A stretch of 64,000 nucleotides of DNA from Acholeplasmatales bacterium. Lineage in GTDB: Bacteria > Bacillota_I > Bacilli_A > Acholeplasmatales > Anaeroplasmataceae. The stretch lies in contig JAILEP010000043.1 of assembly GCA_024697825.1 (NCBI GenBank), positions 9,176 through 73,175 of the forward strand. Direction: 5' to 3'. Under the pieces are notes generated by a model. It did no database searches, was not told the origin of the DNA, and worked only from the letters and a program-made list of their open reading frames with translations. Within the stretch, counting starts at the first letter, position 1; each line of letters begins with the position of its first letter. The position numbers and the translations under genes were made by a program. Positions 30,511 to 46,746 of this stretch are shown here, piece after piece.

Positions 30511-30539
30511 TTGACTATATATTTCTAAATTGGTAAAAT
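30511..30539 (+). promoter_or_regulatory. Sigma-A promoter of the SNF2/Zn-finger/adhesin operon
   Basis: TTGACT-17 bp-TAAAAT with TGn. It overlaps the TTG at 30530 used by the ORF track, so the real start is likely ATG 30611. Confidence 0.7.
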
Positions 30540-30610
30540 ATTCTTATGGGAAAAGTCGATACAAATTTAAACACAAATGGGAGAGTCTTTTGTGGAAGGG
30601 GCGTATTAAT

Positions 30611-33600
30611 ATGCTTAAGGTCTATAGTGATAACCTTAATCAGATATGTGATTTAATTAAGCAGGTTTTAGGTGTAAAGAATTCATCTAAAATTTCTTTT
30701 AAGCAGCTTAATGATTATTTCGATTCTGATATGGAGGAAAATAAATTAGTTAAGAAGATTTCTGATGTAATAAAGGATAATCCAAAGAAAATCTTACCAG
30801 CTGCCTTATTACTTATGATGGCAGAATCATTTGAATATCTTGTAAAGTATGAGGATAAGTATAATGCAATTAAGAATATGCTTATGAATACTAAGAGCCT
30901 AAATGAGGTAGGCGGAGCTTTAAAGGAGGATATGTGGCCATTTTATCCATTCTTCCAGGAAGCATTAACAGCCTTTGCGACACTTCATAATCCCGAGGTG
31001 TTCTCAGGTCTTGAGGCCGAGGGCTTAGTATTTGAATCATCAGTAAGAGATATTGTATTTTCAGATGCGGAAGGTTATGTTATCCCTATTTCATTTGAGT
31101 CTTTTTTTGATACCCTAACAAGCTTCTTTGATAAGGCTAATAGCATTAAAGAAAAGCTTGTATTAGATGATAAGATTAGCTTCCATGAGATTTCTGATTT
31201 ATTTATAGAATTAAATAATTCATATCAAATTTATACATATGACTTTATGGATAATTATTCAGGCCTTAAGGAATTAGCAGAGGGCTATTATAATGAGGTA
31301 TCTGAAAAGCTTAATGCTATATCTACATCAAGCATCCTACCTGATATCAATGCCTTAGTAAGATATACTAACGATAAGATTAAGGTATTAAGATTTAAGA
31401 TTAAGGATGTTAAGAGATTAGATGATCTAGAGGCAGTTAATGAAGAGGTTAATGATCTTAAGGTTTATGCTGTAACTAGATATAATGAATTCGTTGAATA
31501 TTTCACAAAGAGTGGAATTGATGTTCCTGAGCAATTTAATAAGCTTAGTGAGCTTGTGATTGAAAATCCAGAATCTAATGACAATATTGATTCATTATAC
31601 ACATTAATTGATGAAATGATTAAGGGCTTAGAGGCTAAATACGAAAGAAAGAAGAGAGCCCAGCTAGTTAGAGATTTATCTATTAAGATTAAGAATTTTG
31701 ATGAATTCCTAATTGGTCTTAAAACTGAAATTGGTGATACTTCAGTTATAACTAAGAGAAAGATGGGTAATTTTACATCTAAGGATTTAGCTGAGCTATT
31801 ATTAAAGAGATTAAAGCTTCAGAAGAATGCTTATTTTAAGCGAGTAAGAGTATTCGATTATTTATCAATGGCTATTGATTTAGAGGATACAGGCTTTAAG
31901 ATTTATACACGTCATGAATTTGAAAGAATTGGCGCATCTATTAGAGAGATGGAAAAATTCTTAAATTCAGTTTTAGAAAGCATGTTACCAGAAAAGGATT
32001 CTAAGGAAGAATCCGATTTTGAAAATGAAGGACGTGTAGTAGATATTAATGGCAATAATATTAAGATTGCATTAATGAATGAGGATTTTTCTGAAATCTC
32101 ATTCAATGAAGAAAATAATGGTCATACATTTAATATCCATGATTATTCTGCATATCATAATTTAGTTGATTATGCAGTAGATGTAAGAAGACAGCCAGTC
32201 TTCCAGGATTATGGTGATATTTCTGAATATCCATATTTTAAGCCTTTTAAATATCAGGTTGATTCTGTTAGAACAATGCTACAAAGATTTGAAGGCCGTG
32301 GTGTATTTGGTGACCAGGTTGGTTTAGGTAAAACGTTAGAGGCTTTAATGACTGCCGATGTTATGTTTAGATGTGCAACTATTAAAAATGCGGTAGTTGT
32401 AACGACTAAATCAACTATTAGACAGTGGAGAAGTGAGGCAATGACTAAATTCCGTCACGCTGATGGCTCTCCAATGTTTGAAATTTATCCTAAGCATGAT
32501 TCTTATTCATTTGTAGAATTAATGAATGAGCTTGTTAAGGATAAGGAAACTAAGGATTCTAATGCTTTAAAGCTATATTTAGTTTCAACTGAACAAATAA
32601 AGAGTGAGGAAACTCTTGAATTTATTAAATCAAGTGGTGAATATTTTGGTATTAAGAATGCGGCTTATAATCCAAGCCCAGAGGTACCAACAGATCAGCT
32701 TGTAATCGATACTAAGATGAAGGATATCAATGCCTTAAAGGCTTTGGATATTTTAAAGAAGAGATTACCTAATGAGCTATCAAGAGAAATTAAGAAATCA
32801 CTTGATGCAAATGAAAAATATAAAAAGCTAACTGCATATAATGTATATGGATTCTTTGATTATGAATATGATGAGGCAAAAAAGGCCTTTGTTATAACTA
32901 ATCATCAGCTATATAATCCAAAGAAGCCTACTGAATCTTCAGTTAATGAAGAGGTTAAGATGCTTAAGAAATATACTAAGAAGCTTAACGAGATTGAAGA
33001 AAGAAGACAGGAAATATTAAATACATTAGATGAATTAAAGAAAAAATATTCAATTGCCGATATGAGACTTGTCGATTTATTAATTTTCGATGAGGTTCAG
33101 GATTTATTATATGATTTCAATAATAAGGGTAATAAGGAGCAGCTACTTCAGGAATTTATTGCCAATATTCAAAAGAAGTATTGTGTATTAATTTCTGCAA
33201 CTCCTATTAAGAATGACTTAAGTGATATTTTTAATCTTTTATACATGGTAGATAAGAATAGACTTGGTGAAACTAAGGAAAAGGCTGAGGCTAAATTCTA
33301 TAATGCATATTGTGGTGGGGCTAGATCATTATCAGAAATGGCAGCCTCAAAGGATGCGTCTGAGAAATTTAAAAAGCTTAATGGTCTAATCAATTCAATG
33401 TTTACTAGAAAGAGATTATACGATAAGGATGTAACTGAATCTATTAGACGTCATTCTGCAACTATAGAAGAAATAAATAAGGCAAATGAGCATAATAGAG
33501 ATGATTATGGTGGACAGGCGTTTATGAAGCTTGTTGGGGCAATTAGACGTTCTCCTGATATGCTAAATCCTGATAATGATCCACATACATTCTTAGATAA

Positions 33601-35065
33601 ATATGTTAGACCACTATTCCCTAAATATGATTTACCAGATGAAATTATGTTTGATGCCTTTAAGAAGCTAAGTGAGGCAGTAAATGATTCAGCTAAGATT
33701 TGCTTAAATAGACTTGAATATGAGCTAAGAATGAAGCTCGATGGCTTTAATGTATATGATAAATTTACTGAAAATTATCGTATTGTATTAAAGTATGAAT
33801 CTGAAGGTATTAAGAATGAGGTTTATGAAACTGCAGTTAAAACATGTAATTTATTATGTAGCTATATAAACCGTGGCTTAATGAAATTCTATAAATCATA
33901 TCAGGAATATTCTACAGTATTCCTAAGTGATTATATTGACTGGAGAAGACCTCGTAAGAGAGGTGAAAGAATCAATGTTTCAACTGATCCAGGTAAGCTT
34001 CAGATATTTAAGGATTTACTTGTTGTAAAGGATGGTAAAAATAATCAGTATGATATTAATTCTGATAATATTACAGCCCTTGAAACAGGTAAGGTATTAT
34101 TCTATGAAAAATCTCCAGCCCTAAGAGGAGAAATCTATAGAGCTGTAAGAGATTCTAAGCCTGAATTTGGTAATAATAGAAGATTCTATTTAAATTTATT
34201 CCAGGGCGAGGAAAAGGAATATGAGCTTAAGGATTTCATCCATTTAGGATATTTTCCTAAGGGTGAAAAGAATAAGGAAATGAAGGCTTATATGGCTGAA
34301 ATTTCTAATAAGAATTATGATTCTCTTGGCTATGAGGATAAGAGATTATTAGATACATATACATTAAATGGTACATTAAAGAGAGCAGATACAGAAGAGG
34401 ATACATTTAAGGGTGTTACATTTAAGTGGTTTACTGAATATACATCTGAAAATGAGAATTGGAATGCCGTATATTTTATGGATAGAACAATGCTTGCAGG
34501 TACTGACTTCAATGCCGCAAATGTGCTAGTAATTGGTCAGCTTGATAAGGCTAATGGTGGCTATATGGACCCACTAGAGCTTGAACAGCTAATTGGTCGT
34601 ATTTCAAGAATGGGTCAAACAGAGGAATGTATTGTATTTACATGTCTTTATAATGGCAACAATGAGGAAGAAAACGATAAGGAATTTAATAATGTATATT
34701 ACGATATTATGACTGATGAGGATGGCTTTGATTTATACGGAGTATGTCAGACAGAGGTTGATTTCGTAATGCCAGTAGTTATGGCCTGTGGTAATCGATT
34801 ATTTAGCCTAGAATATTCTTATTCTAAGGATAAAATGGATGGTTTTAATGAGGATACATCTGATTTTAAGGCTATTTATAAGAATGAATATATTCCTTAT
34901 GAAATTAAGAGATTCCCTGATTTAGTAAGATATGCTTATACCAATAAAGACAATATTACCGTTTGTTATAATGGTAATGAATATAATCCTTTAGATGCAT
35001 TAAAGGAAATGATTAGATTATATTCAAAGGTATTAAGACCAGAAAATAAGAAAGTGAAAGAGTAG
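30611..35065 (+). CDS. Large SNF2/RapA(YqhH)-like helicase-fold ATPase (about 1484 aa)
   Basis: Motif I GDQVGLGKT (32309-32335), Ia TTKSTIRQW, II LLIFDEVQ (DEVQ at 33089), III ISATPIKN, VI EQLIGRISRMGQ (Gln at 34586). RBS ggaagggg. Confidence 0.85.
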   Translation: MLKVYSDNLNQICDLIKQVLGVKNSSKISFKQLNDYFDSDMEENKLVKKISDVIKDNPKKILPAALLLMMAESFEYLVKYEDKYNAIKNMLMNTKSLNEVGGALKEDMWPFYPFFQEALTAFATLHNPEVFSGLEAEGLVFESSVRDIVFSDAEGYVIPISFESFFDTLTSFFDKANSIKEKLVLDDKISFHEISDLFIELNNSYQIYTYDFMDNYSGLKELAEGYYNEVSEKLNAISTSSILPDINALVRYTNDKIKVLRFKIKDVKRLDDLEAVNEEVNDLKVYAVTRYNEFVEYFTKSGIDVPEQFNKLSELVIENPESNDNIDSLYTLIDEMIKGLEAKYERKKRAQLVRDLSIKIKNFDEFLIGLKTEIGDTSVITKRKMGNFTSKDLAELLLKRLKLQKNAYFKRVRVFDYLSMAIDLEDTGFKIYTRHEFERIGASIREMEKFLNSVLESMLPEKDSKEESDFENEGRVVDINGNNIKIALMNEDFSEISFNEENNGHTFNIHDYSAYHNLVDYAVDVRRQPVFQDYGDISEYPYFKPFKYQVDSVRTMLQRFEGRGVFGDQVGLGKTLEALMTADVMFRCATIKNAVVVTTKSTIRQWRSEAMTKFRHADGSPMFEIYPKHDSYSFVELMNELVKDKETKDSNALKLYLVSTEQIKSEETLEFIKSSGEYFGIKNAAYNPSPEVPTDQLVIDTKMKDINALKALDILKKRLPNELSREIKKSLDANEKYKKLTAYNVYGFFDYEYDEAKKAFVITNHQLYNPKKPTESSVNEEVKMLKKYTKKLNEIEERRQEILNTLDELKKKYSIADMRLVDLLIFDEVQDLLYDFNNKGNKEQLLQEFIANIQKKYCVLISATPIKNDLSDIFNLLYMVDKNRLGETKEKAEAKFYNAYCGGARSLSEMAASKDASEKFKKLNGLINSMFTRKRLYDKDVTESIRRHSATIEEINKANEHNRDDYGGQAFMKLVGAIRRSPDMLNPDNDPHTFLDKYVRPLFPKYDLPDEIMFDAFKKLSEAVNDSAKICLNRLEYELRMKLDGFNVYDKFTENYRIVLKYESEGIKNEVYETAVKTCNLLCSYINRGLMKFYKSYQEYSTVFLSDYIDWRRPRKRGERINVSTDPGKLQIFKDLLVVKDGKNNQYDINSDNITALETGKVLFYEKSPALRGEIYRAVRDSKPEFGNNRRFYLNLFQGEEKEYELKDFIHLGYFPKGEKNKEMKAYMAEISNKNYDSLGYEDKRLLDTYTLNGTLKRADTEEDTFKGVTFKWFTEYTSENENWNAVYFMDRTMLAGTDFNAANVLVIGQLDKANGGYMDPLELEQLIGRISRMGQTEECIVFTCLYNGNNEEENDKEFNNVYYDIMTDEDGFDLYGVCQTEVDFVMPVVMACGNRLFSLEYSYSKDKMDGFNEDTSDFKAIYKNEYIPYEIKRFPDLVRYAYTNKDNITVCYNGNEYNPLDALKEMIRLYSKVLRPENKKVKE

Positions 35066-35074: not shown

Positions 35075-37177
35075 ATGGATAAGAAGTCATTAGAAAATTT
35101 ACTTCTATATGCATCTTATTCAGGCGCTTTGATGAAGCTTGATTCAGAGGGCTTACCCAACTTAATAGAAAATGAATCACCAGTGTCATTCACTTTAAAT
35201 GGTGAGGATTATACAATTGATTTTAGTGATAATTTAGAAAGGGATGCCGTAATTAAGATGGTTAAGCGTGCAGTACCTATCACTAGTGTAATTGATTTAA
35301 CAGATGAGGCTTTAAAGCTTGGTATAGTTACAGATGTAAGTAGTGATTATAAAAAGGCTGAGTTTGAAAGCTTTAATGACTATATTGGTGTAGTTGAGGC
35401 AGATTATTTCTGCTTCAAAATAAATAGTGAATCATTTGATGATACAGTTTATAAAATAACATATAAGCGTGAAAACCATGATATTAAAAAGAAGATAGAA
35501 TATGCGAGCCGTACTTCATTATTTATTGATACATTAATCAAGAGAATTATGGCTAAGTATAATATTTTATTAGTAAGAAAGGCATCATTAAATAGTGAAA
35601 TGCTGCCAGAATTACCAGTAGAGGAAAATACTTACGCAGAATATGAGGATACAGCTGATTCAAGCTTTGATACTGATATGATTCAAAACCAGCTAAAGCT
35701 TTTGATTAATTATCGTGATAATTTCAATAACGCTTCATGTAGTGAAAATGTTATTGATGATATCTTTATTAGTATCACAGATAATCAGGTTTCATATGGC
35801 TTTTATAATATCGGTCAAAGTGATGAGGAGCCTGTTTATGATGTAATTAATGAGACTGTATCTGCAGATGATATTGATTCATTGCTAAGAATAAGAAGCT
35901 TAATAAATGATAATGATGTTAAGTTTAAGATGTTTGAAACATTAAGAGCTAATAAGAATACACATTTATCAAGATTAATAGAAGAAAGAATCGCTCAATA
36001 TGATAGTGAATTAAATTCTGATCCAAAGATTGAATTTACAGTAACTCCATTATCTATTTACTGTAATCATATCGTAAAGAAGACAGTTCATTACCATATT
36101 GGTATAAAGAGCGAGCAATATAAAAATTATATAGTTCCATTTACTGTTATATTTAATCCAGCAGATCCTAGCTCAACAGAATATGAAATATATGCAGATG
36201 GCGAAATGGAAATGCTAAAGCCTGGTAGACATTTAGTTTTAGCATTTGATGGTATTAATGATGGTACTCATGATTTAAACCCAATGGTTACTAGTGAGGA
36301 TTATGCAACTAAGCTATATGGCTTAGCTGATAGATATAATAATAAATATTATAAGGATATTTATTTCCTTAATGAGGATTTAGTTAAGGTAATTGATGGT
36401 AATTTAGTACCTTATGATGGTAAGCCTGATGAATTTACTTATTTAAAGAATCAGGTTGTTAAGGGTGAAATATCTGGTAAATATTATTTTATTAAGGATA
36501 CAATTAAGATTAAATCTAATGATATATTAGGTGTTGATTTTATTTCTGATCAAATCGAGGATAAATATATTCATACCTCATATGCAAGAAAGTGTGATGT
36601 ATGTGGTCATGTTTTTGGCGCAACTGATGATGTATGGAATATGTATAAGGCTCAGCATAAGTTAATCAATGTTGGAAATGGTGCTTCTTGTTGTAATCAC
36701 TGTGCTGGTACAGTTGTAAATGAGGATCAGGTTATCCTATATTCTAAGGGATATAAGGAATATTATTTTGATGATTATAAGAATCCTTCACGTACTGCAA
36801 TATGTATTACATGTGATGAGCCTAGTGAGGCATTAATCTATGTAAAGAAGGGCTCTAAGCGTGGTAAATGTAAGGTTTGTGGCAAATATTATTGTCCTGA
36901 CCATATTAACCCAGAAACTAATATTTGTGTAAATTGTAGTGGTGAATTAGAGCGTAATGATACATTAAGCGATGGCTTAAGAAAGAATGTAATTAAAAGC
37001 TTAAGCCCTAAGGATATGCTTGTTAAGGATATTAGCTTTAATTATTACAAGGCGGCTAATTCCGTTTGGGCAATAGTAAAGAAGGAGAAGAAAACATCGA
37101 TATATTATTTCGCAGTAGATGATAACGAGCTATTCGTTCATTTACTTGGAAAGAATGTTAAGAGAGGTGGTAAGTAA
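35075..37177 (+). CDS. Hypothetical cytoplasmic protein with C-terminal Cys/His zinc-finger cluster (possibly YqhG-related)
   Basis: CDVC, CCNHC, CITC, CKVC…CPDH, CVNC at 36593-36937. RBS aggtga overlaps the SNF2 stop. Confidence 0.75.
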   Translation: MDKKSLENLLLYASYSGALMKLDSEGLPNLIENESPVSFTLNGEDYTIDFSDNLERDAVIKMVKRAVPITSVIDLTDEALKLGIVTDVSSDYKKAEFESFNDYIGVVEADYFCFKINSESFDDTVYKITYKRENHDIKKKIEYASRTSLFIDTLIKRIMAKYNILLVRKASLNSEMLPELPVEENTYAEYEDTADSSFDTDMIQNQLKLLINYRDNFNNASCSENVIDDIFISITDNQVSYGFYNIGQSDEEPVYDVINETVSADDIDSLLRIRSLINDNDVKFKMFETLRANKNTHLSRLIEERIAQYDSELNSDPKIEFTVTPLSIYCNHIVKKTVHYHIGIKSEQYKNYIVPFTVIFNPADPSSTEYEIYADGEMEMLKPGRHLVLAFDGINDGTHDLNPMVTSEDYATKLYGLADRYNNKYYKDIYFLNEDLVKVIDGNLVPYDGKPDEFTYLKNQVVKGEISGKYYFIKDTIKIKSNDILGVDFISDQIEDKYIHTSYARKCDVCGHVFGATDDVWNMYKAQHKLINVGNGASCCNHCAGTVVNEDQVILYSKGYKEYYFDDYKNPSRTAICITCDEPSEALIYVKKGSKRGKCKVCGKYYCPDHINPETNICVNCSGELERNDTLSDGLRKNVIKSLSPKDMLVKDISFNYYKAANSVWAIVKKEKKTSIYYFAVDDNELFVHLLGKNVKRGGK

Positions 37178-40100
37178 TGTCAGTTTATGACGAGGTCTCT
37201 AGTAGTGTAAAAGCGAATAATAAGGCCAAGAACACAAAGTTCATAAAGAATCAGAAGACAATGAACATTCTTACCATGGTTCTTTGTCTTATCATGCTTA
37301 TTGCGGATACAATTTATGTTATAAAGGAATCCTCAGTAGGTATATTAATGTTTACAAGGGTTGTTTTAGATTTTGCGATTGTAGCAGAGGCTATAATGGT
37401 TGTTATTCTTGCAATATTTAAATTCAACACTGAAAATAAAATAATTAAGATATTAACTGCAGTTGCATTCTCTATATCTGTAATTGGATATATTGCAATG
37501 TTTAAATATGCAGATGCATATAGTATTATATTATTTATTTTTAGAATTCCTTTAAGTGCTATTTTTATCGTAATAGCAGTTAAATCATTAGTGAGCCCTA
37601 AATCATTTATTCTTCGTTGGGCAGTTGGTGGTGGAGTTGGAGCAGTAGTATTAATTACTGCATTAATTCTATTATTTTCTGCAAATGAAAGAAGAGCAAT
37701 TTATGATAATGGAACTCTTGTTAATATTTTAGATGGTACAGCTAAGGTTAAAATCGAGGATGGTACAACTACAATTGGTGCTAGCTCCTTAAAGAATGCT
37801 GGTGAAAAGGTAGAATTTCCATCATCTGTAAAAACAGTTGATAAGGATGCCTTCTTAGATTCAGAGGTTAATACATTAACTGTTTCATCTTCAAGTATTT
37901 CAGTAGTTAGTGCTCTAAAGAATACTGATGTAGATACAATCTATATTGAAAATGATTCAGTTATTACAATTGATGATTTAAAGGGTACAATTGAGAATTC
38001 TGATTTTGAATTTATAGTATCAAGAGATTTAGTTGATGCTTATAGACAAAAATATTCTAAATATGATTATTTATTTGCACCAAAGCTTGATGATAATGAA
38101 TTCTATATTGCATTTAATGGTACAAGCCTTCCTGTAGTAATTTATACTAAGGATCAGCTACCAAAGACAGTCTTAAATCCATATTCTTCATCTCAGAATG
38201 TTAAGACTGAAAATAATATCAAATATATTTTGACTTCTTGGGATGTAAATGGAGAAGCTATTTCATATCCATTTACAGCAACAGGCAGTACAGAATTTAA
38301 TGCAAATTGGGAAAGAATTTATACTGTAACATATGATTATGATGGTGGTACTCCAGCTGATGGAAGTGCAGTACTTGAAACAGAAGAATTCTATTCTAGC
38401 CGTGCTAATAAGACATTGCCAGAGCTTGAAAAGAGTGGTTATGATTTTACAGGCTGGTATTTATTAGATTCAAATGGTAATTTTACTAATACTAAGATTC
38501 AGTTTATTGATACAGATAATTTAGCTGATATGACTATTAAGGCAAGATTCGTTAAGAATTATGTTTTAACATATCATTTAAATGGCGGTACTATGACTGA
38601 TGATGAAACTACAGTCTTTAACGAGGATGGTTCAGTAATCGTGCCTCCAACTCCTACAAAGGAAGGCTATAGCTTTGATGGCTGGTATGATAATGCAGAA
38701 TTTAGTGGAAGCAGTATAGCGGTAGTAGCAAGTACTAGTCAAAATGATATCGAATTATATGCTAAGTGGGTTTTAGACAATCCAACTATTACATTATCAA
38801 ATGACATTAACAAGACATTTGATAATCAGTATTCAGAATTAAAGGTGACTCCAAGCCATGCCTTATCAACTATAGCTTATACATATGCATGGTATAAGAG
38901 TGGTAGTAGTGATGCATTAGGTAAGACATCATCTTATAAGGTAAGATATGTTAATGAATCTGGTGCTTATTATTGTGTTGTCACTGCAACTGATACTGCA
39001 ACAGGTGAAACTGCAACAGTAACATCAAGCAATATCAATGTGACAATTCATAAGGCTAATTATGAATTACCTACTATTTTAAATACTTATTCATACGAAT
39101 ATGATGGTAATGCTAAGACTCCAAATATTGGAACAATTCCTACAGGCCTTGATGGTTCAGTATTAAATGTTTCTTATAGTAACACAGCTATTAAGAATGT
39201 TGGTGATGATGATTATGTGACTATTTCATTTAGTACAGAATCAGATAATTATAATACTCCATCATCAGCTAAGGTTTATGTTAGAGTAACTCCTAAGACA
39301 TTAACAATTACATGGCCAGAGTCGTTAGAATTTACTTATAATGGCAGTGCTCAATATCCTCTTCCTACAATTACAGGATTAATTAGTGGTGATGAATGTA
39401 CATTCACTTATTCAGATACTACTAATAATATTAATGTAGGTACATATAGTATTGAGGTTACTGGTCTATCAAATGAAAATTATCAGCTTCCTACAAATAC
39501 TAGTGTCGAATATACAATTGTTAAGGCAACTGAGACAATAACTGGTATTACAGTTTCTGATGTAGAAGCTACATATGATGGTAATGCTCATTATCCTGCA
39601 ATTACAGGTGATTTACCTTCAGGTATTAAGGCTTTATATTCAGAAGAGCCAGTAAATGTAGGTACATATAATGTAAAAGTAACATTTACTTATGAATCTG
39701 ATAATTATGAAATAAATGATTCTTATATAAGTACAGTTACTATTATTCAAAAGAAAGTAACAGTAGCTAGTAGTTCAGTATTAACTTATAATGGTAGCTT
39801 ACAAGCACCTACACTTACCGTTTCAGGCTTAGTTGGTAGTGATACATGTCAAGCAACAATTAGTGGTAATACTAATGCTGGTGAATATACAGAAGATGTA
39901 ACATTATCTAATAATAATTATGTATTATCTTCAAATACATTCACTTATACAATTAATAAGGCTACATATGATTTATCTGGAATTACATTTAGTGATACAT
40001 CAGTAACATATGATGGAAAAGCTCATGGTATTACAATTAAGGGTACATTACCTATTGGAAAGGATGATGTACAAATTAGTGTTTCTTATTCAGATACAAC

Positions 40101-43100
40101 AAATAATATTAATGTTGGTTCATATGAAGTAGTAGCATCATTTGTAGGTTCTACAAATTATGAGACTATTTCAGACATGACTGCAAATATTACAATTAAT
40201 GCTAAGCAGGTATCTGTTTTATTCGATGATTCTAATTTAACTTATAATGGAAATGCTCAGGCTCCAACAGCCACAGTTTCAGGTTTAATTGAAGGTGATG
40301 CATGTTCAGTAACAATTACTAAGAATACAGTTGCTGGAACATATTCAACTTCTGATTCTACATTAACAGTAGAATTAAATAATTCAAATTATGTATTACG
40401 TTCTACAGATGTTTATACATATACAATCAATAAGGCTGATTATGATATTTTAGGTATTACATATGAAGGCATAGAAACTACATATACAGGTAATGCTCAA
40501 ACTATTACAATTGATGATTTACCTACAGGTAAAGATGGCTATGAATTAAGTGCTACATATTATATTGATGATGTAGCTAACGCAAGTAGAACTAATGCAG
40601 GTTCTTACACAATTGTTGTTAAATTTAGTTCTGAATCTCCTAATTATAATGACGTTTCAGATATTGAAAAGACATTTGTTATTAATCCAAAGACTTTAAC
40701 AGTTACATGGAATTCAGTAGCATTTGAGTACGATGGTACAGCTAAGGCTCCAACTGCAACAGTATCAGGATATGTAAATAGTGATACTGCTACATTTGAA
40801 TATAGTGATACATCTAATAATATTAATGTTGGTACATATACAATTTCTATTATCAATTTATCTAATAGCAATTATACATTACCAGCTAATGCAACAACTT
40901 CATATACAATTGCAAAGGGTGTTATGACATTAGATGGCGTATCTGTTTCAGATTTAGAAACAGTATATGATGGAAATGTTCATTATCCTACAGTTAATGG
41001 CACTTTACCTGATGGTGTAACTGCAGTTTATTCAGTTGATCCTAAGAATGTAGGTACTTATAGCGTTACAGTAACATTTGAATATGATTCAGATGATTAT
41101 GCAATTTCTGAAAGCTATACTGCAAATGTTACTATTACTCAAAAGACAGTTACAGTTTCTAGTGAATCAGTATTAACTTATAATGCTAATGAGCAAGCAC
41201 CTACACTTACAGTTTCTGGTTTAGTTGATGGTGATACTTGTACAGCAGAAGTTAATGGTAATACTTTAGCAGGTACATATACAGAAGATGTCACATTATC
41301 TAATACTAATTATGTATTAGCATCTAGTACATTTACTTATACAATTAATAAGGCTACTTATAGTTATTCATTAACATTTACTGATGAAACAGTGACATAT
41401 GATGGTAGCTTACATGGAATTGTAGTTGCCGGAACATTACCTACAGGCTTAGATGGTGTTCAGGTTAGCGTTTCTTATTCATCTACAGGTATTACTGATG
41501 TTGGCTCACTTTTAATTACAGCAACATTCACAGTTTCTTCAAATTATGAAGCAATTGATTCAATGACTGCAACAATTACAGTTAGTGCTAAGACAGTAAC
41601 ACTTACATATAGTAATGAAAGCTTAACTTATAATGGTAGTCAGCAGGCACCAACAGCCACAATTTCAGGCTTAATTGGTACTGATACTTGTACTGCAACA
41701 ATTCAGGCAAATACTGATGCAGGTACATATTCAACAGCTGATTCTACATTAACAGTTACATTATCAAATTCTAATTATAAGCTAGCAGATGATTATTCTT
41801 ATTCATATACAATCGCTAAGGCTGATTATGATATTTCAGGTATTGCATATTCAGGCTTAGAGGCTACATATTCAGGCTCTGCCTTAAGCATTTCAATTTC
41901 AGGCTTACCTACAGGTCTAGATAATTATAAGCTTTCTGCAAGCTATTATATTGGCGGAGTAGAAAATGCGACTGTAAAGAATGCAGGTACATATGATGTA
42001 ACAGTTAAGTTTACTTCAAGCTCAAATAATTATAATGATGTAGAAGATGCAGCATTAACAATGGTTGTTTCAGCTAAGACTATAACAGTTACATTTAATG
42101 ATGATTTAGTTTATACAGGAGAAGCTCAGGCTCCAACTGTTAATACAATAACTGGTGTTGTTTCAGGCGATACTGTTAATGTAACAGTAACAGCAATGAC
42201 TAACGCTGGTACATATTCAACATCAGCTGGTGATATAACAGTTACACTTGATAATTCTAATTATCAGCTAGGTGATGATTTTGAATATTCTTATACAATT
42301 AGCCCTAAGACAGTAAGTATTGTTTGGGGTACTACAACATTTACATATGATGGTAGCGAGCATGTGCCAACAGCAACACTTGGTGATTCTGCATTAACAT
42401 TAGAGGTAACTGCAAATGAAACATCAATTAATGCGGGTACATATACAGCAACAGCTACAATCACTGATACAAATTATGATGTTGAATCTGATAAGACAAT
42501 TGAATTTACAATTGAAAAGGCAACATTTGAAAGTAATAAGACAGTAACAAATGTAGAAGCTACATATGATGGTGAAACTCATGATCCATCAGTAAGTGGC
42601 TCTAGCCAGTATGTTGATGAAACATTAGTTACTTGGACATTCAGCAGTAGTGAAAGTGCAGTTGGTATTTATACAATTACAGTTACATTCCACGCTACAG
42701 ATAATTATGAGGATGTAGAAGTAACTGCAACAGTAACAATAGAAGCATTAGAATTATCATTAGAATTTGATTCAACAGAATTTACATTCAATAATGAAAT
42801 ACAAAAGCCAACTGTTACATCAAGCAATGTTCTTGATGGTGATACAGTAACATTTACTGTTAAGAATACATCAGTAGATGCTGGTACATATACTGCAAGT
42901 ATTACATTAGAAGGCGCTGATGCAGGTAATTATGCATTACCTTCAGCAGGCTATACTTATAAAATTAATAAGGCTGATTATGATATGTCTTCAGTAACAT
43001 ATTCTAATACTACAGTAAGTTATACTGGTGATGCACAATCTCCAGTAGTAGCAGGCTTACCTACAGGTGCAGATAATATTACTGTTACATATTCGGCTGG

Positions 43101-46100
43101 TACAGTAACAAATGTTACAGCAGGTACAGCAGTAACTATTACATTTGCGACAACATCAACTAATTACAATGTTCCAGCAAGTGTAGAAGTAACAATGATT
43201 GTAAATCCAGCTGAATTAACAATTAGCTTTGATTCAAGCTCATTTACATATGATGGTTCAGCTCATACTCCAACAGCATCTATTTCTGGTGTTATTGGAT
43301 CTGAGGATGTAGATTTCACAATTAATGCTAATAATATTAATGCTGGTACATATACATTGACAGAGAGTGATATTACATTATCTGGTAGTGATATGGCAAA
43401 TTATACAGTAGCAGAATTTGAATATTCTTATACAATTAGCCCTAAGACAGTAAGTATTGTTTGGGGTACTACAACATTTACATATGATGGTAGCGAGCAT
43501 GTGCCAACAGCAACACTTGGTGATTCTGCATTAACATTAGAGGTTACTGCAAATGAAACATCAATTAATGCGGGTACATATACAGCAACAGCTACAATCA
43601 CTGATACAAATTATGATGTTGAATCTGATAAGACAATTGAATTTACAATTGAAAAGGCAACATTTGATTGTGATAAGACAGTAACAAATGTTGAAGTAAC
43701 ATATAATGGTAGCGAACAGTATCCATCAGTTACAGGTGCAAGCCAGTATGTTGATGGAACAGCAATAACTTGGACTTATAGTGGTGCAGCAGCAGCTGTT
43801 GGTAGCCATACAGTTACAGTTATCTTCCATGCAACAGATAATTATGAGGATGTAGAGGTAACTGCAATAGTTACTATTACAAAATTAGAATTATCATTAG
43901 AATTTGATTCAACAGAATTCACATTCAATGATGAAATTCAAAAGCCAACAGTTACATCAAGTAATGTAATTGATGGCGATACAGTAACATTTACTGTTAA
44001 TAATAACTCAGTATCTGCAGGTACATATACTGTAAGCATTACATTATCAGGTACTGATGCTGGAAATTATGCATTACCTTCAACAGGCTATACTTATAAA
44101 ATTAATAAGGCTGATTATGATATGACTTCTGTAATATATTCTAATACTGAAGTAAGCTATACAGGAGAGGGTCAATCTCCGGTAGTATCTAACTTACCTA
44201 CAGGTGTAGATAATATTACTGTTACATATTCGGCTGGTACAGTAACAGATGTTACAGCAGGTACAGCAGTAACTATTACATTTGCGACAACATCAACTAA
44301 TTACAATGTTCCAGCAAGTGTAGAAGTAACAATGATTGTAAATCCAGCTGAATTAGCTATTAGCTTTGATTCAAGCTCATTTACATATGATGGAACTGCA
44401 AAGACTCCAACAGGTACACTTTCAGGTGTAATTGATGGCGATACAGTAACAGTTACAATTAATGCTAATAATATTGATGCAGGTACATATACATTAACAG
44501 AGAGTGATATTACATTATCTGGTAGTGATATGGCAAATTATACAGTAGCAGAATTTGATTATGAATATACTATTAATCAGGCTACTATGGATTTAACTGG
44601 TGTTACAGTTTCTGATGTAGAAGCTACATATGATGGTAATTCACATAATCCTGTACCTACAGGTGATCTACCAGTTTATGATAGTGAAACAGTATCTTAT
44701 ACAATTTCTGGTGAAACTATTACAGCTGGTACGCATACAGTTTATGTAGTATTTAGTGTATCAACTGGTAATTATGAGGATTATACAATTGAAGCAACAG
44801 TTACAATTAATGCTTTAGCTATTACTGTTACATATGATTCACTTGAATTTACTTATAATGGTAGTGTTCAGGTTCCTACAATTACATCTAATAATTTAAT
44901 TACTGGTGATGATGTTACATTATCTGTATCTAATACAAGCAAGAGTGCTGGTACATATACAGTAAGTCTTACATTAGAAGGTACTGATGCAGGTAATTAT
45001 AATTTACCAACATCATCTACAACTTATAAAATTAATAAGGCTAATTATGATATGACTTCCGTAACATATTCTAATACTGAGGTAACTTATACTGGTGAGG
45101 CACAATCTCCAGTAGTATCAGGCTTACCTACAGGCTTAGATAATATTACAGTAACTTATACAGCAGAGACAGTAACTGATGTAACAAGTAGCACAGATGT
45201 AACTATTACATTTGCGACAACTTCAACTAATTATAATGTTCCTGATTCAGTAACAGTAACAATGGTTGTTAAGGCTGCAACATTAACAGTTTCTGGTGAT
45301 TCATTCTCAGTTGCATATACTGGTAGTGAGGTAGCACCTACAATTACATTATCTGGAATTTATGGTACTGATGATGTTTCAGTCACAGTCAATAATAAGA
45401 ATTCAGCAGTTGGTAGCTATACATTAACAAAGGATGATGTATCATTAACTGGTGATGATGCCGGTAATTATGTTCTTGAAAGCTTCTCAGTTTCTTATGA
45501 AATTACTAAGGGTGAATATGATACTACAGGTATAGTATTCGAGGATACTTCATTAATTTATAATGGTGAGGCTCAAACAATTACAGTAAGTGGTTCATTT
45601 ACTAATACAGGTGCAGATGGTACAACACCTAATATGAGCAATATTACATATTCAGGTTCAGGTACAAATGTTGGTGAATATACAATTACAGCAACTATTC
45701 CATCTGAGTCTGATAATTATAATGATGTTGTATTAACAGCAACATTAACAATTACAGCAGCAACAGTAGATGCAATCTTCTATATTGATTCAACTGAAAT
45801 TACTAATTCTTCAACTAGTGTAAAATATACAGGTAATAGTCATACATTAGTAGTTGAGGCTGATTCATCTGATTTATATAATGGTGATACAGTTACTCTA
45901 GAGGTAGTTATTACTTATAGTGGTACAGCAGTATCTTCAATTAAGAAGGCGGGTACATATTCAATTACTGCATATGTTACAGATAATGATAATTACGAGG
46001 CTAGTGATACTGCATATACTATTGCTATTTCTAGTACATATTTATGGTGGCTAGGTTGGAGCAAAGACCATTTAAGCAATTCGATTAATTTATCTAATAA

Positions 46101-46707
46101 TGTGATTATTACAGCTGATGAGGTATTAAATGGTGAAAATGAGGATTTCTATTTCATCTATTCAGTTACATCAACTGGCGAGGAATTAGATGCTTATCCA
46201 ACTGAAGCTGGTTCATATACTGTAACACTTCATTATGATTCTGATTCAGTTACAATGGGTGATAATACTAAGACTTACAATACCTTTACTTTATCTGAAT
46301 CTTCAGGAACAACAACTGTTGATTTCTCATCAGGTTGGACTTTAAGTGGTACTGATACATCTACAGCATTCTCAGGAACTACTTATTCAGCTAATTCTTT
46401 AATTGCAATATCTAATAGCACATATAGTAATTTAACTAGTGTATCATTAACTTATACAGTAGATGATAAGAGCTCAACTAGTATAAAAGTATACACATCT
46501 ACAGATGGACAAACATGGACGTTAGAGGGTACTATAACACCTACTAAGAATAATGAATCACAAACTGGTACAGTAAATATTTCTACAAATAATACTGGTG
46601 ATGTTTACGTTAAGATTGAAATTACTTGTACAAAGGGTATAGGCAATGCTAAGACTGCATCAATTTCTAGTGCTACATTAGCATGTGTTGTATTAAAGGT
46701 TTCATAA
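37177..46707 (+). CDS. Giant surface protein/adhesin: 5 N-terminal TM, BspA-like LRR, 2 InlB B-repeats, Ig-like domain, about 30 MBG-like modules (3176 aa)
   Basis: Five hydrophobic segments in aa ~30-170. TTIGASSL/FPSSVKTVDKDAF. KSGYDFTGWY and KEGYSFDGWY. Recurrent TY[DN]G…[NV]AGTY modules. TAATG overlap with the upstream gene. Confidence 0.85.
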   Translation: MSVYDEVSSSVKANNKAKNTKFIKNQKTMNILTMVLCLIMLIADTIYVIKESSVGILMFTRVVLDFAIVAEAIMVVILAIFKFNTENKIIKILTAVAFSISVIGYIAMFKYADAYSIILFIFRIPLSAIFIVIAVKSLVSPKSFILRWAVGGGVGAVVLITALILLFSANERRAIYDNGTLVNILDGTAKVKIEDGTTTIGASSLKNAGEKVEFPSSVKTVDKDAFLDSEVNTLTVSSSSISVVSALKNTDVDTIYIENDSVITIDDLKGTIENSDFEFIVSRDLVDAYRQKYSKYDYLFAPKLDDNEFYIAFNGTSLPVVIYTKDQLPKTVLNPYSSSQNVKTENNIKYILTSWDVNGEAISYPFTATGSTEFNANWERIYTVTYDYDGGTPADGSAVLETEEFYSSRANKTLPELEKSGYDFTGWYLLDSNGNFTNTKIQFIDTDNLADMTIKARFVKNYVLTYHLNGGTMTDDETTVFNEDGSVIVPPTPTKEGYSFDGWYDNAEFSGSSIAVVASTSQNDIELYAKWVLDNPTITLSNDINKTFDNQYSELKVTPSHALSTIAYTYAWYKSGSSDALGKTSSYKVRYVNESGAYYCVVTATDTATGETATVTSSNINVTIHKANYELPTILNTYSYEYDGNAKTPNIGTIPTGLDGSVLNVSYSNTAIKNVGDDDYVTISFSTESDNYNTPSSAKVYVRVTPKTLTITWPESLEFTYNGSAQYPLPTITGLISGDECTFTYSDTTNNINVGTYSIEVTGLSNENYQLPTNTSVEYTIVKATETITGITVSDVEATYDGNAHYPAITGDLPSGIKALYSEEPVNVGTYNVKVTFTYESDNYEINDSYISTVTIIQKKVTVASSSVLTYNGSLQAPTLTVSGLVGSDTCQATISGNTNAGEYTEDVTLSNNNYVLSSNTFTYTINKATYDLSGITFSDTSVTYDGKAHGITIKGTLPIGKDDVQISVSYSDTTNNINVGSYEVVASFVGSTNYETISDMTANITINAKQVSVLFDDSNLTYNGNAQAPTATVSGLIEGDACSVTITKNTVAGTYSTSDSTLTVELNNSNYVLRSTDVYTYTINKADYDILGITYEGIETTYTGNAQTITIDDLPTGKDGYELSATYYIDDVANASRTNAGSYTIVVKFSSESPNYNDVSDIEKTFVINPKTLTVTWNSVAFEYDGTAKAPTATVSGYVNSDTATFEYSDTSNNINVGTYTISIINLSNSNYTLPANATTSYTIAKGVMTLDGVSVSDLETVYDGNVHYPTVNGTLPDGVTAVYSVDPKNVGTYSVTVTFEYDSDDYAISESYTANVTITQKTVTVSSESVLTYNANEQAPTLTVSGLVDGDTCTAEVNGNTLAGTYTEDVTLSNTNYVLASSTFTYTINKATYSYSLTFTDETVTYDGSLHGIVVAGTLPTGLDGVQVSVSYSSTGITDVGSLLITATFTVSSNYEAIDSMTATITVSAKTVTLTYSNESLTYNGSQQAPTATISGLIGTDTCTATIQANTDAGTYSTADSTLTVTLSNSNYKLADDYSYSYTIAKADYDISGIAYSGLEATYSGSALSISISGLPTGLDNYKLSASYYIGGVENATVKNAGTYDVTVKFTSSSNNYNDVEDAALTMVVSAKTITVTFNDDLVYTGEAQAPTVNTITGVVSGDTVNVTVTAMTNAGTYSTSAGDITVTLDNSNYQLGDDFEYSYTISPKTVSIVWGTTTFTYDGSEHVPTATLGDSALTLEVTANETSINAGTYTATATITDTNYDVESDKTIEFTIEKATFESNKTVTNVEATYDGETHDPSVSGSSQYVDETLVTWTFSSSESAVGIYTITVTFHATDNYEDVEVTATVTIEALELSLEFDSTEFTFNNEIQKPTVTSSNVLDGDTVTFTVKNTSVDAGTYTASITLEGADAGNYALPSAGYTYKINKADYDMSSVTYSNTTVSYTGDAQSPVVAGLPTGADNITVTYSAGTVTNVTAGTAVTITFATTSTNYNVPASVEVTMIVNPAELTISFDSSSFTYDGSAHTPTASISGVIGSEDVDFTINANNINAGTYTLTESDITLSGSDMANYTVAEFEYSYTISPKTVSIVWGTTTFTYDGSEHVPTATLGDSALTLEVTANETSINAGTYTATATITDTNYDVESDKTIEFTIEKATFDCDKTVTNVEVTYNGSEQYPSVTGASQYVDGTAITWTYSGAAAAVGSHTVTVIFHATDNYEDVEVTAIVTITKLELSLEFDSTEFTFNDEIQKPTVTSSNVIDGDTVTFTVNNNSVSAGTYTVSITLSGTDAGNYALPSTGYTYKINKADYDMTSVIYSNTEVSYTGEGQSPVVSNLPTGVDNITVTYSAGTVTDVTAGTAVTITFATTSTNYNVPASVEVTMIVNPAELAISFDSSSFTYDGTAKTPTGTLSGVIDGDTVTVTINANNIDAGTYTLTESDITLSGSDMANYTVAEFDYEYTINQATMDLTGVTVSDVEATYDGNSHNPVPTGDLPVYDSETVSYTISGETITAGTHTVYVVFSVSTGNYEDYTIEATVTINALAITVTYDSLEFTYNGSVQVPTITSNNLITGDDVTLSVSNTSKSAGTYTVSLTLEGTDAGNYNLPTSSTTYKINKANYDMTSVTYSNTEVTYTGEAQSPVVSGLPTGLDNITVTYTAETVTDVTSSTDVTITFATTSTNYNVPDSVTVTMVVKAATLTVSGDSFSVAYTGSEVAPTITLSGIYGTDDVSVTVNNKNSAVGSYTLTKDDVSLTGDDAGNYVLESFSVSYEITKGEYDTTGIVFEDTSLIYNGEAQTITVSGSFTNTGADGTTPNMSNITYSGSGTNVGEYTITATIPSESDNYNDVVLTATLTITAATVDAIFYIDSTEITNSSTSVKYTGNSHTLVVEADSSDLYNGDTVTLEVVITYSGTAVSSIKKAGTYSITAYVTDNDNYEASDTAYTIAISSTYLWWLGWSKDHLSNSINLSNNVIITADEVLNGENEDFYFIYSVTSTGEELDAYPTEAGSYTVTLHYDSDSVTMGDNTKTYNTFTLSESSGTTTVDFSSGWTLSGTDTSTAFSGTTYSANSLIAISNSTYSNLTSVSLTYTVDDKSSTSIKVYTSTDGQTWTLEGTITPTKNNESQTGTVNISTNNTGDVYVKIEITCTKGIGNAKTASISSATLACVVLKVS
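39424..41350 (+). repeat. Diverged six-module block duplication, period 1392 bp (464 aa)
   Basis: Anchors 39424/40816 (aataatattaatgt) and 39778/41170 (gtattaacttataatg) both give offset 1392. Confidence 0.75.
42280..44557 (+). repeat. Five-module tandem duplication, period 1137 bp (379 aa)
   Basis: 42280-42530 vs 43417-43667 differ at 1 of 251 nt. 43071-43218 vs 44208-44355 differ at 1 of 148 nt. Confidence 0.9.
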
Positions 46708-46714
46708 TAAAAAT

Positions 46715-46746
46715 AGGTCTATTTCGAAAAGAAATAGGCCTTTTTT
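46715..46746 (+). terminator. Intrinsic terminator closing the three-gene operon
   Basis: aggtctatttc-gaaaa-gaaataggcct-ttttt. Confidence 0.75.

What the first reader, a model, noticed from the sequence alone, without database searches (positions are those of the whole stretch)
30511..46746. Candidate undescribed system: SNF2 ATPase, multi-zinc-finger protein and giant TM-anchored surface protein in one coupled operon
Seen: one promoter (30511-30539) and three genes with no real spacers. The SNF2 TAG overlaps the next RBS, and the Zn-finger TAA overlaps the adhesin ATG (TAATG). One terminator closes the unit (46715-46746). This couples two apparently cytoplasmic, nucleic-acid-associated proteins to a 3176-aa surface protein held by a five-helix membrane bundle. 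Established: SNF2-like ATPases occur in bacterial defence systems (DISARM DrmD, Zorya ZorD) and as the RNA polymerase recycler RapA; B. subtilis has an uncharacterised yqhH (SNF2)-yqhG pair. I know of no described system linking such a pair to an LRR/MBG surface protein. Inference, as alternatives: (a) a surface-sensing conflict/defence module signalling through the TM bundle to the ATPase/Zn-finger complex; (b) a transcription/processivity module for expressing very long adhesin genes; (c) incidental co-transcription.
Basis: partly seen in the sequence, partly recalled or inferred. Interest (0 to 1): 0.85.

Follow-up and report, generated by a model that had tools for sequence, protein, structure and literature searches.

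The report
Conserved SNF2, zinc-ribbon, membrane-LRR operon
A three-gene operon that joins a DNA-motor ATPase and an orphan zinc-binding protein to a membrane-anchored surface protein is real, travels as one unit in about twenty gut and rumen bacterial lineages, matches no described system, and may link events at the cell surface to the cell's DNA, possibly as a phage defence.

Summary
One promoter, three tightly coupled genes and one terminator lie at 30511-46746.

The genes encode a divergent SNF2 ATPase (1484 aa), a Cys-rich protein with no known relatives (700 aa), and a 3176-aa protein. The third protein has five N-terminal membrane helices, then BspA-type LRR, Flg_new and MBG/YDG repeats.

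The linkage is not incidental:
- Every one of 32 related loci keeps the order SNF2, Zn protein, 5TM-LRR protein. These fall into about 21 distinct systems with G+C from 25 to 59% and at least 8 unrelated flank contexts.
- Gaps between the genes are -8 to +21 nt, and the three proteins diverge in step.
- The giant ectodomain is dispensable. Some systems carry a 323-aa TM-LRR protein or a stand-alone 138-aa TM bundle. This argues against a "long-gene expression" role.

The Zn protein family is very rare (35 clusters among 1.84 billion representatives). It has no Pfam, PDB or Foldseek match. No known defence system fits, and I found no paper describing the trio.

Outside the Acholeplasmatales clade, four loci sit beside TIR, AAA+, trypsin or DO-GTPase-like genes. 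Acholeplasmatales flanks are housekeeping.

Best reading, inferred and not shown: a surface-anchored sensor or anchor coupled to a DNA-acting SNF2/Zn pair, probably a conflict system analogous to Zorya or Kiwa.

The parts
30511..30539 (+). Sigma-70-type promoter, TTGACT-17 nt-TAAAAT with a TG extension. It lies in the divergent intergenic region shared with the minus-strand peptidase C1 gene.
   Evidence: 10 of 12 matches, the only TG-extended site; sequence. Function as a promoter is inferred.
30611..35065 (+). Gene 1: divergent SNF2-family ATPase, 1484 aa. It has an N-terminal helical extension of about 500 aa (present only in 'long' systems). The split SNF2 core carries motif I DQVGLGKT, motif II DEVQ, motif III SATPI and motif VI QLIGRISRMGQT.
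   Evidence: Pfam SNF2-rel_dom 3.5e-14 and ResIII. Motifs are invariant across relatives at 30-69% identity. AF2 plus Foldseek gives RapA as the top hit at E 1.8e-3, then SWR1, INO80 and ISWI. No TM segment.
35075..37177 (+). Gene 2: orphan Cys-rich protein, 700 aa. Its N-terminal domain has the invariant motif EYASRxSxFxDxLxKRIMxKYNxLxV (R146, Y162). Its C-terminal part has two invariant 4-Cys zinc ribbons (C507/C510/C540/C543 and C599/C602/C618/C621) and a third site (C577/C580/C607/H610).
   Evidence: No hit in Pfam, NCBIfam, PADLOC or PDB sequences. AF2 pLDDT 78, with no Foldseek hit at E<1e-3 in PDB or BFVD. Its RBS overlaps the SNF2 stop codon.
37177..37689 (+). Gene 3, N-terminal anchor: a basic cytoplasmic tail (aa 1-27) and five membrane helices (aa 28-170). 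Intramembrane D44 (TM1), E72 (TM2) and R123 (TM4) are conserved. This is the part of gene 3 conserved in all systems.
   Evidence: Hydropathy. Alignments A1 and A5. An HMM of this part hits exactly one ORF per family locus, always directly after the Zn gene. The start codon overlaps the Zn gene stop codon as TAATG.
37732..38100 (+). Gene 3, membrane-proximal BspA-type leucine-rich-repeat region (about aa 186-308). It is extracellular by the predicted topology.
   Evidence: LRR_5 E 2.3e-4 in the window protein, below the Pfam cut-off. Found in 11 of 13 homologous N-termini, best 1.2e-7.
38100..46707 (+). Gene 3, variable giant ectodomain (3176 aa in total): Flg_new (Listeria-Bacteroides) repeats, then many MBG_2/MBG_3/YDG modules, then a C-terminal beta-rich domain. 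It contains long-period internal duplications (units of 1137 and about 1386 nt, up to 96% identical).
   Evidence: Pfam; repeats. Length and domain content vary between homologues, from 0 to about 3000 aa, and some carry CBM77 or Ig domains.
46715..46746 (+). Intrinsic terminator closing the unit: an 11-bp stem, a 5-nt loop and a T-run.
   Evidence: sequence.

Best explanation
Shown: this is one member of a rare, conserved and so far undescribed three-component system. The components are a divergent but catalytically intact SNF2 ATPase, an orphan zinc-ribbon protein, and a membrane protein. The conserved core of the membrane protein is a short basic cytoplasmic tail, a five-helix bundle with buried Asp/Glu/Arg residues, and a membrane-proximal BspA-type LRR outside the cell. 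The rest of the ectodomain is variable and dispensable. In this window it is a 3000-aa Flg_new/MBG/YDG array.

Inferred mechanism: the membrane protein is the sensor and anchor. Its ectodomain engages something at the cell surface, such as an adsorbing phage or another cell or surface. The TM bundle passes this on, or simply localises the partners. The Zn-ribbon protein is the adaptor that docks on the tail and loops and binds nucleic acid. The SNF2 motor then acts on double-stranded DNA at the membrane, translocating on incoming foreign DNA, stripping proteins from it or blocking it.

I read it as a surface-coupled conflict or defence module. It would be functionally analogous to, but not homologous with, Zorya type I (ZorAB with ZorC/ZorD) and Kiwa (KwaA with KwaB).

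Confidence that the three genes form one functional module is about 0.9. Confidence in the defence-type mechanism is about 0.45, which is the figure given for this field.
For: Module:
- The trio occurs in the same order in all 32 loci that hold enough sequence.
- G+C ranges from 25 to 59%, and there are at least 8 unrelated flank contexts.
- Only the trio is shared between the window and the other loci.
- Gene gaps are -8 to +21 nt in 16 loci, and pairwise identities of the three proteins correlate at r = 0.88-0.98.
- The TM-anchor HMM finds nothing in 75 unrelated SNF2 loci or elsewhere in the window.

Core of gene 3: systems exist with a 323-aa TM-LRR protein (L106) or a separate 138-aa TM bundle (L023). 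D44, E72 and R123 in the helices are conserved.

Active motor: SNF2 motifs I, II, III and VI are invariant down to 30% identity.

Conflict flavour:
- L108 continues, with gaps of 16 nt or less, into HTH, Band7, an IetA/TRIP13-like AAA+ (9e-25) and a ZnR-TIR protein.
- In L110 the trio is preceded, tightly packed, by an AAA-trypsin fusion.
- In L020 and L023 the TM gene is followed by homologous ZnR plus P-loop proteins (E 1e-33). They have a DVAGE Walker B motif and a weak DO-GTPase1 hit. DO-GTPases are predicted conflict-system switches (PMC7159879).

Precedent: membrane sensors that recruit DNA-acting soluble partners are established for Zorya (PMC11946911) and Kiwa (PMC11785009).
Against: - No experiment or expression data exist, and no RNA run was found.
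- No nuclease or other effector domain is detectable in the trio.
- No PADLOC family matches the Zn or TM proteins. The SNF2 hits are generic.
- In the Acholeplasmatales clade, including this window, the flanks are housekeeping genes: Suf, peptidases, GcpE, MutS, RelA/SpoT and others.
- The trio is not found on phages, plasmids or IMG/VR contigs.
- The SNF2 protein is well conserved (57-69% identity), which is less typical of fast-turnover defence genes.
- Ectodomains made of adhesin-type modules, with CBM77 in some relatives, fit adhesion at least as well as phage sensing.
- Only four loci have conflict-type neighbours, and adjacency may be coincidental.
- A 5TM bundle with a 27-aa tail is a small platform for signalling.
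Confidence: 0.45

Rival explanations
1. Adhesion- or substrate-coupled gene regulation. The ectodomain binds plant polymer, host or partner-cell surfaces. The TM bundle relays occupancy to the Zn protein. The SNF2 ATPase acts on RNA polymerase or on nucleoid proteins, as RapA does, to reprogram transcription. The logic is analogous to RsgI/SigI polysaccharide sensing.
For: Ectodomains are built of adhesin and carbohydrate-binding modules: Flg_new, MBG, YDG, and CBM77 in L001 and L004. Acholeplasmatales loci have housekeeping flanks and stable positions. The trio was found in only 10 of the 185,579 species genomes scanned, all rumen or goat Acholeplasmatales-like MAGs. Every one of these loci long enough to judge keeps the full trio. 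The search patterns reach only close relatives. The best structural match of the SNF2 core is E. coli RapA (E 1.8e-3), and there is a weak RapA hit at motif I.
Against: The RapA matches are marginal, and the NCBIfam score is 37.5 against a cut-off of 576. No sigma factor, anti-sigma factor or DNA-binding HTH domain is conserved in the module. The neighbours in L108, L110, L020 and L023 are conflict-type, not regulatory targets. The ectodomain can be nearly absent.
Confidence: 0.2
2. Membrane-tethered DNA handling at contact sites. The TM protein anchors an SNF2 translocase and a Zn-ribbon DNA binder under a surface adhesin. There they pull, hold or process DNA for uptake, cell-to-cell exchange or chromosome-membrane attachment. 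The wall-less host may favour this.
For: SNF2 enzymes are double-stranded-DNA translocases (established knowledge). The trio pairs such a motor with a membrane anchor in a strict 1:1:1 ratio. Giant adhesin-like ectodomains suggest cell or surface contact.
Against: No channel-forming or competence or conjugation proteins are conserved nearby. A 5-helix bundle is unlikely to be a DNA pore. The trio is absent from plasmids and phage collections. There is no direct evidence.
Confidence: 0.1
3. Dedicated expression or biogenesis helper for the giant adhesin. The SNF2/Zn pair would keep transcription or insertion of a very long, repeat-rich, membrane-inserted gene product going.
For: The genes are translationally coupled. 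The giant gene is 9.5 kb and repeat-rich. RapA-like similarity exists.
Against: The same SNF2/Zn pair is coupled to third genes of only 138 aa (L023), 323 aa (L106) and 1126 aa (L108). What is conserved in gene 3 is the TM bundle plus LRR, not its length.
Confidence: 0.06
4. Incidental co-transcription, or synteny kept only by close relatedness.
For: Most loci come from one order of rumen and gut Mollicutes-like bacteria.
Against: The trio is retained at Zn-protein identity of about 18-30%, across G+C of 25-59%, and in at least 8 flank contexts with no other shared gene.
Confidence: 0.02

Closest known systems
Zorya type I (ZorA/ZorB membrane complex with ZorC and the SNF2-like ZorD)
   Same: A membrane-embedded component is coupled in one operon to soluble DNA-directed proteins, one of them an SNF2-type ATPase. 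The membrane part has conserved charged residues in its helices. The proposed logic is the same: sensing at the envelope, then action on DNA near the entry site (PMC11946911).
   Different: There is no MotAB-like ZorA/ZorB, no long coiled-coil tail, no peptidoglycan-binding domain and no nuclease domain. PADLOC ZorD hits are only generic SNF2 similarity (E 7e-16 for L108, none for the window protein), and nothing matches ZorA, ZorB or ZorC. The membrane protein here has an extracellular LRR or adhesin domain.
Kiwa (KwaA membrane sensor with KwaB)
   Same: A small multi-helix membrane protein is paired with a cytoplasmic DNA-associated partner, and it is activated by changes at the membrane (PMC11785009).
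   Different: No sequence match to KwaA or KwaB in PADLOC. Kiwa has no SNF2 ATPase, no Zn-ribbon protein and no ectodomain.
SNF2 ATPases of DISARM (DrmD), Dpd (DpdE) and BREX (BrxH)
   Same: All are SNF2-superfamily motors in multi-gene systems. These are the best PADLOC and NCBIfam hits of gene 1.
   Different: The hits cover only about 70 residues around motif I. Scores are 30-43 bits against equivalog cut-offs of 500-610. None of the partner genes of those systems is present.
RapA/HepA (RNA polymerase-associated SNF2 ATPase)
   Same: Bacterial SNF2 ATPase and the top Foldseek match of the modelled core (8so8, E 1.8e-3, probability 0.97).
   Different: The NCBIfam RapA score is 37.5 against a cut-off of 576. 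The model is of modest quality (pLDDT 67). RapA has no Zn-ribbon or membrane partner.
DO-GTPase conflict systems (Kaur et al. 2020, PMC7159879)
   Same: A ZnR plus P-loop protein with a Glu-containing Walker B motif follows the trio in L020 and L023. DO-GTPase systems are often membrane-proximal and coupled to variable non-enzymatic sensor modules.
   Different: The Pfam DO-GTPase1 hit is below threshold (E 0.0065). No GAP1 was recognised. The window has no such gene. SNF2 is not a described DO-GTPase partner.
BspA-like LRR / Listeria-Bacteroides-repeat / MBG surface proteins of gut bacteria
   Same: The ectodomain of gene 3 is built of these modules.
   Different: It is anchored by a family-specific 5-helix bundle rather than a signal peptide, LPXTG motif or lipobox. 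It is always encoded after the SNF2/Zn pair.

Membership tests
SNF2 (SWI2/SNF2) ATPase superfamily | Two RecA-like lobes with helicase motifs I (GxGKT), II (DExx), III and VI (QxxGRxxRxGQ), and a match to Pfam SNF2-rel_dom | tested here: met
   SNF2-rel_dom scores 53 bits against a cut-off of 24.9, and ResIII 26.4 against 22.5. DQVGLGKT, DEVQ, SATPI and QLIGRISRMGQT are invariant in the family. Foldseek hits are RapA, SWR1, INO80, ISWI, CSB and Chd1.
RapA (NCBIfam PRK04914) | Full-length equivalog score of at least 576 bits | tested here: not met
   37.5 bits, covering residues 555-615 only.
DISARM | DrmD equivalog score of at least 610 bits, plus DrmA, DrmB and a methyltransferase or DrmC neighbours | tested here: not met
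   DrmD scores 42.5 bits on motif I only. No DISARM partners in the flanks.
Zorya type I | ZorA/ZorB (MotAB-like 5:2 motor) with ZorC and ZorD | tested here: not met
   PADLOC gives no hit for the TM N-terminus or the Zn protein, and no ZorD hit for the window SNF2. Weak generic ZorD hits occur only for the short SNF2 proteins.
Kiwa | KwaA (4TM) with KwaB (DUF4868) | tested here: not met
   No PADLOC or Pfam hit.
B. subtilis YqhH-YqhG pair | The partner protein belongs to the YqhG family. That a Pfam family exists for YqhG is my recollection, not checked here. | tested here: not met
   The Zn protein has no Pfam or NCBIfam hit at E<=0.01. No direct comparison with YqhG was run.
BspA-type LRR surface proteins (Pfam LRR_5) | LRR_5 match at or above the gathering score of 27.7 bits | tested here: inconclusive
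   The window protein scores 21.5 bits (E 2.3e-4). 11 of 13 homologous N-termini match at E<0.1, best 1.2e-7.
Listeria-Bacteroides repeat / MBG / YDG repeat proteins | Pfam Flg_new, MBG_2, MBG_3 and YDG above their cut-offs | tested here: met
   Flg_new 69.6, YDG 52.1, MBG_3 42.4 and MBG_2 26.3 bits, all above their cut-offs.
DO-GTPase system | A DO-GTPase (TRAFAC GTPase with Glu in Walker B, often with an N-terminal ZnR) plus GAP1 | tested here: not met
   No such gene in the window. In L020 and L023 the candidate GTPase is below the Pfam cut-off (16.2 against 27 bits), and GAP1 was not recognised.
Mobile element (phage, plasmid or ICE cargo) | Homologues on phage or plasmid records, or integrase or transfer genes in the flanks | tested here: not met
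   No tblastn hit in the phage or plasmid collections, and no relative in IMG/VR. Flanks are housekeeping.

The most novel reading that the evidence does not exclude
A bacterial 'Toll-like' arrangement. An extracellular LRR receptor is anchored by a charged five-helix bundle. It signals directly, through an orphan zinc-ribbon adaptor, to a chromatin-remodeller-type SNF2 motor. Contact at the cell surface, such as phage adsorption or cell or substrate binding, is thereby converted into ATP-driven action on DNA. This would be a new class of outside-in, surface-to-DNA immune or signalling system. In some lineages it is wired to TIR, protease or GTPase effectors.
Probability: 0.3. Interest if true: 0.9.

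Novelty: categorically new. Interest (0 to 1): 0.72.

Why it matters
If the three proteins work together as the genomics indicates, this is a previously unrecognised way of coupling the cell surface to a DNA motor.

It would add a third, non-homologous example to the emerging theme of membrane-sensing defence (Zorya, Kiwa). It would be the first with a true extracellular recognition domain, and LRRs are the recognition modules of animal and plant innate immune receptors.

It would also give a function to an orphan zinc-ribbon family and to a divergent SNF2 clade. And it would explain why a genome-reduced, wall-less gut or rumen bacterium spends 16 kb on one operon.

The short versions (SNF2 of about 800 aa, Zn protein of about 600 aa, TM-LRR protein of 323-1126 aa) make the idea directly testable in standard hosts.

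If it is instead an adhesion-to-transcription relay, it would be a new signalling route in gut commensals.

Tried and rejected
I replaced it with a local HMM search over all fetched loci.
No model of the TM bundle exists.
- Foldseek of the Zn-protein model against PDB and BFVD gave no hit at E<1e-3. The top rows are noise with TM-scores below 0.1.
- PDB sequence and profile searches gave only a weak Rad54-like hit for the SNF2 protein and nothing for the Zn protein.
- The AF2 model of the SNF2 core is mediocre (pLDDT 67, with the first 93 residues disordered). It supports only fold-level statements.
- No RNA-seq run was available. Laying DNA runs used assembler contigs only, so the repeat-unit deletion seen in X1 may be assembly collapse.
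- The metagenome scan with the SNF2 alignment returned mostly generic SNF2 loci. Only 5 were true family members. The rest served as negative controls.
- I considered and rejected a phage, plasmid or ICE origin. I also rejected membership of DISARM, Dpd, BREX, Zorya or Kiwa, a YqhG relationship, and an accessory-Sec-like export system (no SecA2/SecY2-type neighbours, and the ectodomain is dispensable).
- BLAST did not show the beta-rich proteins upstream of the short SNF2 genes (L025, L030, L110) to be homologous.
Full report
**1. What is in the window**

The window has low G+C (about 32%) and is chromosomal. It carries Tex, LeuRS, the Suf operon, peptidases C69 and C1, a T-box-controlled asparagine synthase, BipA and GGDEF proteins. 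The closest database proteins are labelled 'MAG: Acholeplasmatales bacterium', from rumen and goat gut.

Three + strand ORFs fill positions 30530-46707. The promoter TTGACT-17-(TG)TAAAAT at 30511-30539 is the best + strand site in the divergent intergenic region. A strong terminator lies at 46715-46741, and no credible terminator lies in between.

- The SNF2 gene must begin at ATG 30611. The TTG at 30530 sits in the -10 box, and the 98%-identical P0036 is also 1484 aa.
- The SNF2 TAG overlaps the AGGTGA ribosome-binding site of gene 2, which starts at ATG 35075.
- The TAA of gene 2 overlaps the ATG of gene 3 as TAATG.

**2. The three proteins**

*Gene 1.* This is a very divergent SNF2 ATPase.
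- Pfam finds a split SNF2-rel_dom plus ResIII.
- NCBIfam and PADLOC match DrmD, DpdE, RapA and BrxH only over about 70 residues at motif I, with scores more than ten-fold below the equivalog cut-offs.
- PDB sequence searches find almost nothing.
- Motifs I, II, III and VI are invariant in all relatives down to 30% identity, so the motor is under selection.
- An AF2 model of the core (pLDDT 67) matches RapA best, weakly (E 1.8e-3), followed by eukaryotic remodellers. No extra known domain, such as a nuclease, appears.

*Gene 2.* This protein has no hit in Pfam, NCBIfam, PADLOC or PDB.
- Its AF2 model (pLDDT 78) has no Foldseek match in PDB or BFVD.
- Across 20 diverse members the invariant residues are R146 and Y162, in a strongly conserved N-terminal helix motif, plus eight cysteines that form two 4-Cys ribbons. 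A third Cys/His site is conserved in most members.

*Gene 3.* The protein has a basic 27-aa tail and five hydrophobic helices (aa 28-170). The positive-inside rule puts the N-terminus in and the rest out.
- Next come a weak BspA-type LRR, Flg_new repeats, a long MBG/YDG array and a C-terminal beta-rich domain.
- The gene contains recent long-period duplications (1137-nt units, 91-96% identical).

**3. Is the linkage real?**

Yes. The Zn protein has only 35 word-indexed homologues. It matches only 35 clusters at 50% identity among 1.84 billion representatives in an exhaustive profile search.

I inspected contexts for close, intermediate and very distant members (Zn-protein identity down to about 18-20%). 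Every locus that extends far enough has SNF2, then Zn protein, then a multi-TM protein.

- An HMM of the TM anchor hits exactly one ORF in each of 32 family loci, always the gene right after the Zn gene. It hits nothing in 75 unrelated SNF2 loci or elsewhere in the window.
- An all-against-all BLAST of flank ORFs shows the trio is the only thing shared between the window and the other loci. There are at least 8 different flank contexts.
- Gaps are -8 to +21 nt (SNF2 to Zn) and -8 to +10 nt (Zn to TM) in 16 loci. Pairwise identities of the three proteins are tightly correlated (r = 0.88-0.98).
- G+C ranges from 25% to 59%, so the module is not confined to one lineage.

Incidental co-transcription is therefore rejected.

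**4. What is conserved and what is not**

There are 'long' systems (SNF2 of 1476-1755 aa with a helical N-terminal extension; Zn protein of 690-864 aa). There are also 'short' systems (SNF2 of 797-945 aa; Zn protein of 538-648 aa).

Gene 3 ranges widely in size:
- a stand-alone 138-aa TM bundle (L023);
- a 323-aa TM-LRR protein (L106);
- an 1126-aa protein (L108);
- proteins of 2082-3176 aa.

The constant part is the tail, the helix bundle with D44 (TM1), E72 (TM2) and R123 (TM4), and the membrane-proximal LRR. The giant adhesin-like array is a lineage-specific elaboration. This disfavours the idea that the SNF2/Zn pair exists to express very long genes.

**5. Context as a clue to function**

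In the Acholeplasmatales clade the flanks are housekeeping genes, and the PADLOC hits there are generic ABC- or SMC-type ATPases.

Outside that clade, the few loci with informative flanks look like conflict loci:
- L108 runs on without spacers into HTH, Band7, an IetA/TRIP13-like AAA+ and a ZnR-TIR protein.
- In L110 an AAA-trypsin fusion and other unknown genes precede the trio, tightly packed.
- In L020 and L023 the TM gene is followed by homologous ZnR plus P-loop proteins with a Glu-containing Walker B motif (E 1e-33). These resemble DO-GTPases, which are described as switches of predicted conflict systems.

The trio is absent from the phage, plasmid and IMG/VR collections.

**6. Mechanism (inference)**

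The most economical model has three roles:
- The membrane protein acts as surface sensor and anchor.
- The Zn-ribbon protein acts as adaptor and nucleic-acid binder.
- The SNF2 motor acts as the DNA-directed output at the membrane.

This mirrors, without homology, Zorya and Kiwa. In Zorya, ZorAB senses invasion and recruits the DNA-binding ZorC and the nuclease ZorD (PMC11946911). In Kiwa, KwaA senses membrane changes and KwaB acts on DNA (PMC11785009).

I give this about 0.45. The main rival, at about 0.2, is an adhesion- or substrate-sensing relay to transcription, with RapA-like action and RsgI-like logic. It is favoured by the adhesin and CBM modules and by the housekeeping context in Acholeplasmatales. 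Membrane-tethered DNA handling gets 0.1, adhesin expression 0.06 and coincidence 0.02.

- Shown: the anatomy, the conservation, the coupling, intact ATPase motifs, the zinc-ribbon cysteines, and the absence of matches to known systems.
- Inferred: the topology, the protein-protein contacts, the direction of signalling, the DNA substrate and the biological role.

**7. Novelty**

Full-text searches for combinations of SNF2, LRR, transmembrane, zinc ribbon, Acholeplasma, MBG and Listeria-Bacteroides repeat found no description of this trio.

No defining feature of DISARM, Dpd, BREX, Zorya, Kiwa, RapA or YqhG-type pairs is met beyond SNF2 superfamily membership.

I therefore rate it as a new kind of system whose function is still unproven. 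It is interesting mainly because it is compact, strictly conserved and experimentally tractable.

Noticed in passing
window 42277-45505 (within gene 3): Long-period tandem duplications: 1137-nt units 91-96% identical, and an older duplication of about 1386 nt at 39510-41993. One public run (X1) has a contig that skips exactly 1137 nt (43070 to 44208). This is either repeat-number variation or assembly collapse.
   Followed up: partly
window 1263-4316 and 4291-7599 (- strand): Two adjacent large ORFs (1017 and 1102 aa) overlap by 26 nt and have no Pfam match at E<=1e-5. They are another uncharacterised gene pair.
   Followed up: no
window 25822-27015: Three small ORFs (110, 109 and 163 aa) follow the Suf genes. 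They have weak zinc-ribbon matches and a weak SLATT_5 match, all below the Pfam cut-offs.
   Followed up: no
window 51952-52193: A T-box leader (131 bits) lies directly upstream of an asparagine synthase gene (52241-53821), not an aminoacyl-tRNA synthetase gene.
   Followed up: no
L020 16939-18420 and L023 2904-4133: Homologous proteins (28% identity, E 1e-33) with two zinc ribbons, a P-loop GxxxxGKS and a DVAGE Walker B motif lie directly after the TM gene. They are DO-GTPase-like but below the Pfam cut-off. They may be an optional fourth component.
   Followed up: partly
L108 674-4212 and 11972-18577: Upstream of the short trio are four small membrane proteins. Three of them share a C-terminal motif (..KYxKLIEKHExxxxKGLL). 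Downstream, without spacers, are HTH_3, Band_7_1, two coiled-coil proteins, an IetA/TRIP13-like AAA+ and a ZnR-TIR protein.
   Followed up: partly
L110 904-7588: An AAA+/trypsin fusion (941 aa), two unknown proteins and a ZnR plus beta-rich protein (449 aa) are packed directly upstream of the short SNF2 gene. Beta-rich proteins also precede the SNF2 gene in L025 and L030, but BLAST detects no homology between them.
   Followed up: partly
L002 4592-9034: In one metagenome contig the SNF2 gene is split into 1133-aa and 334-aa ORFs. In the otherwise matching L001 it is an intact 1480-aa gene. This is a frameshift or inactivated allele, or an assembly error.
   Followed up: no
window 30400-46800, laid on run X2: A related strain (about 97% identical) carries the whole operon at the same position. 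Divergence is fairly even (1.5-3%) and rises to about 5% in the last 2.3 kb of gene 3. The sequence just upstream of the promoter (30434-30486) has several small deletions.
   Followed up: no
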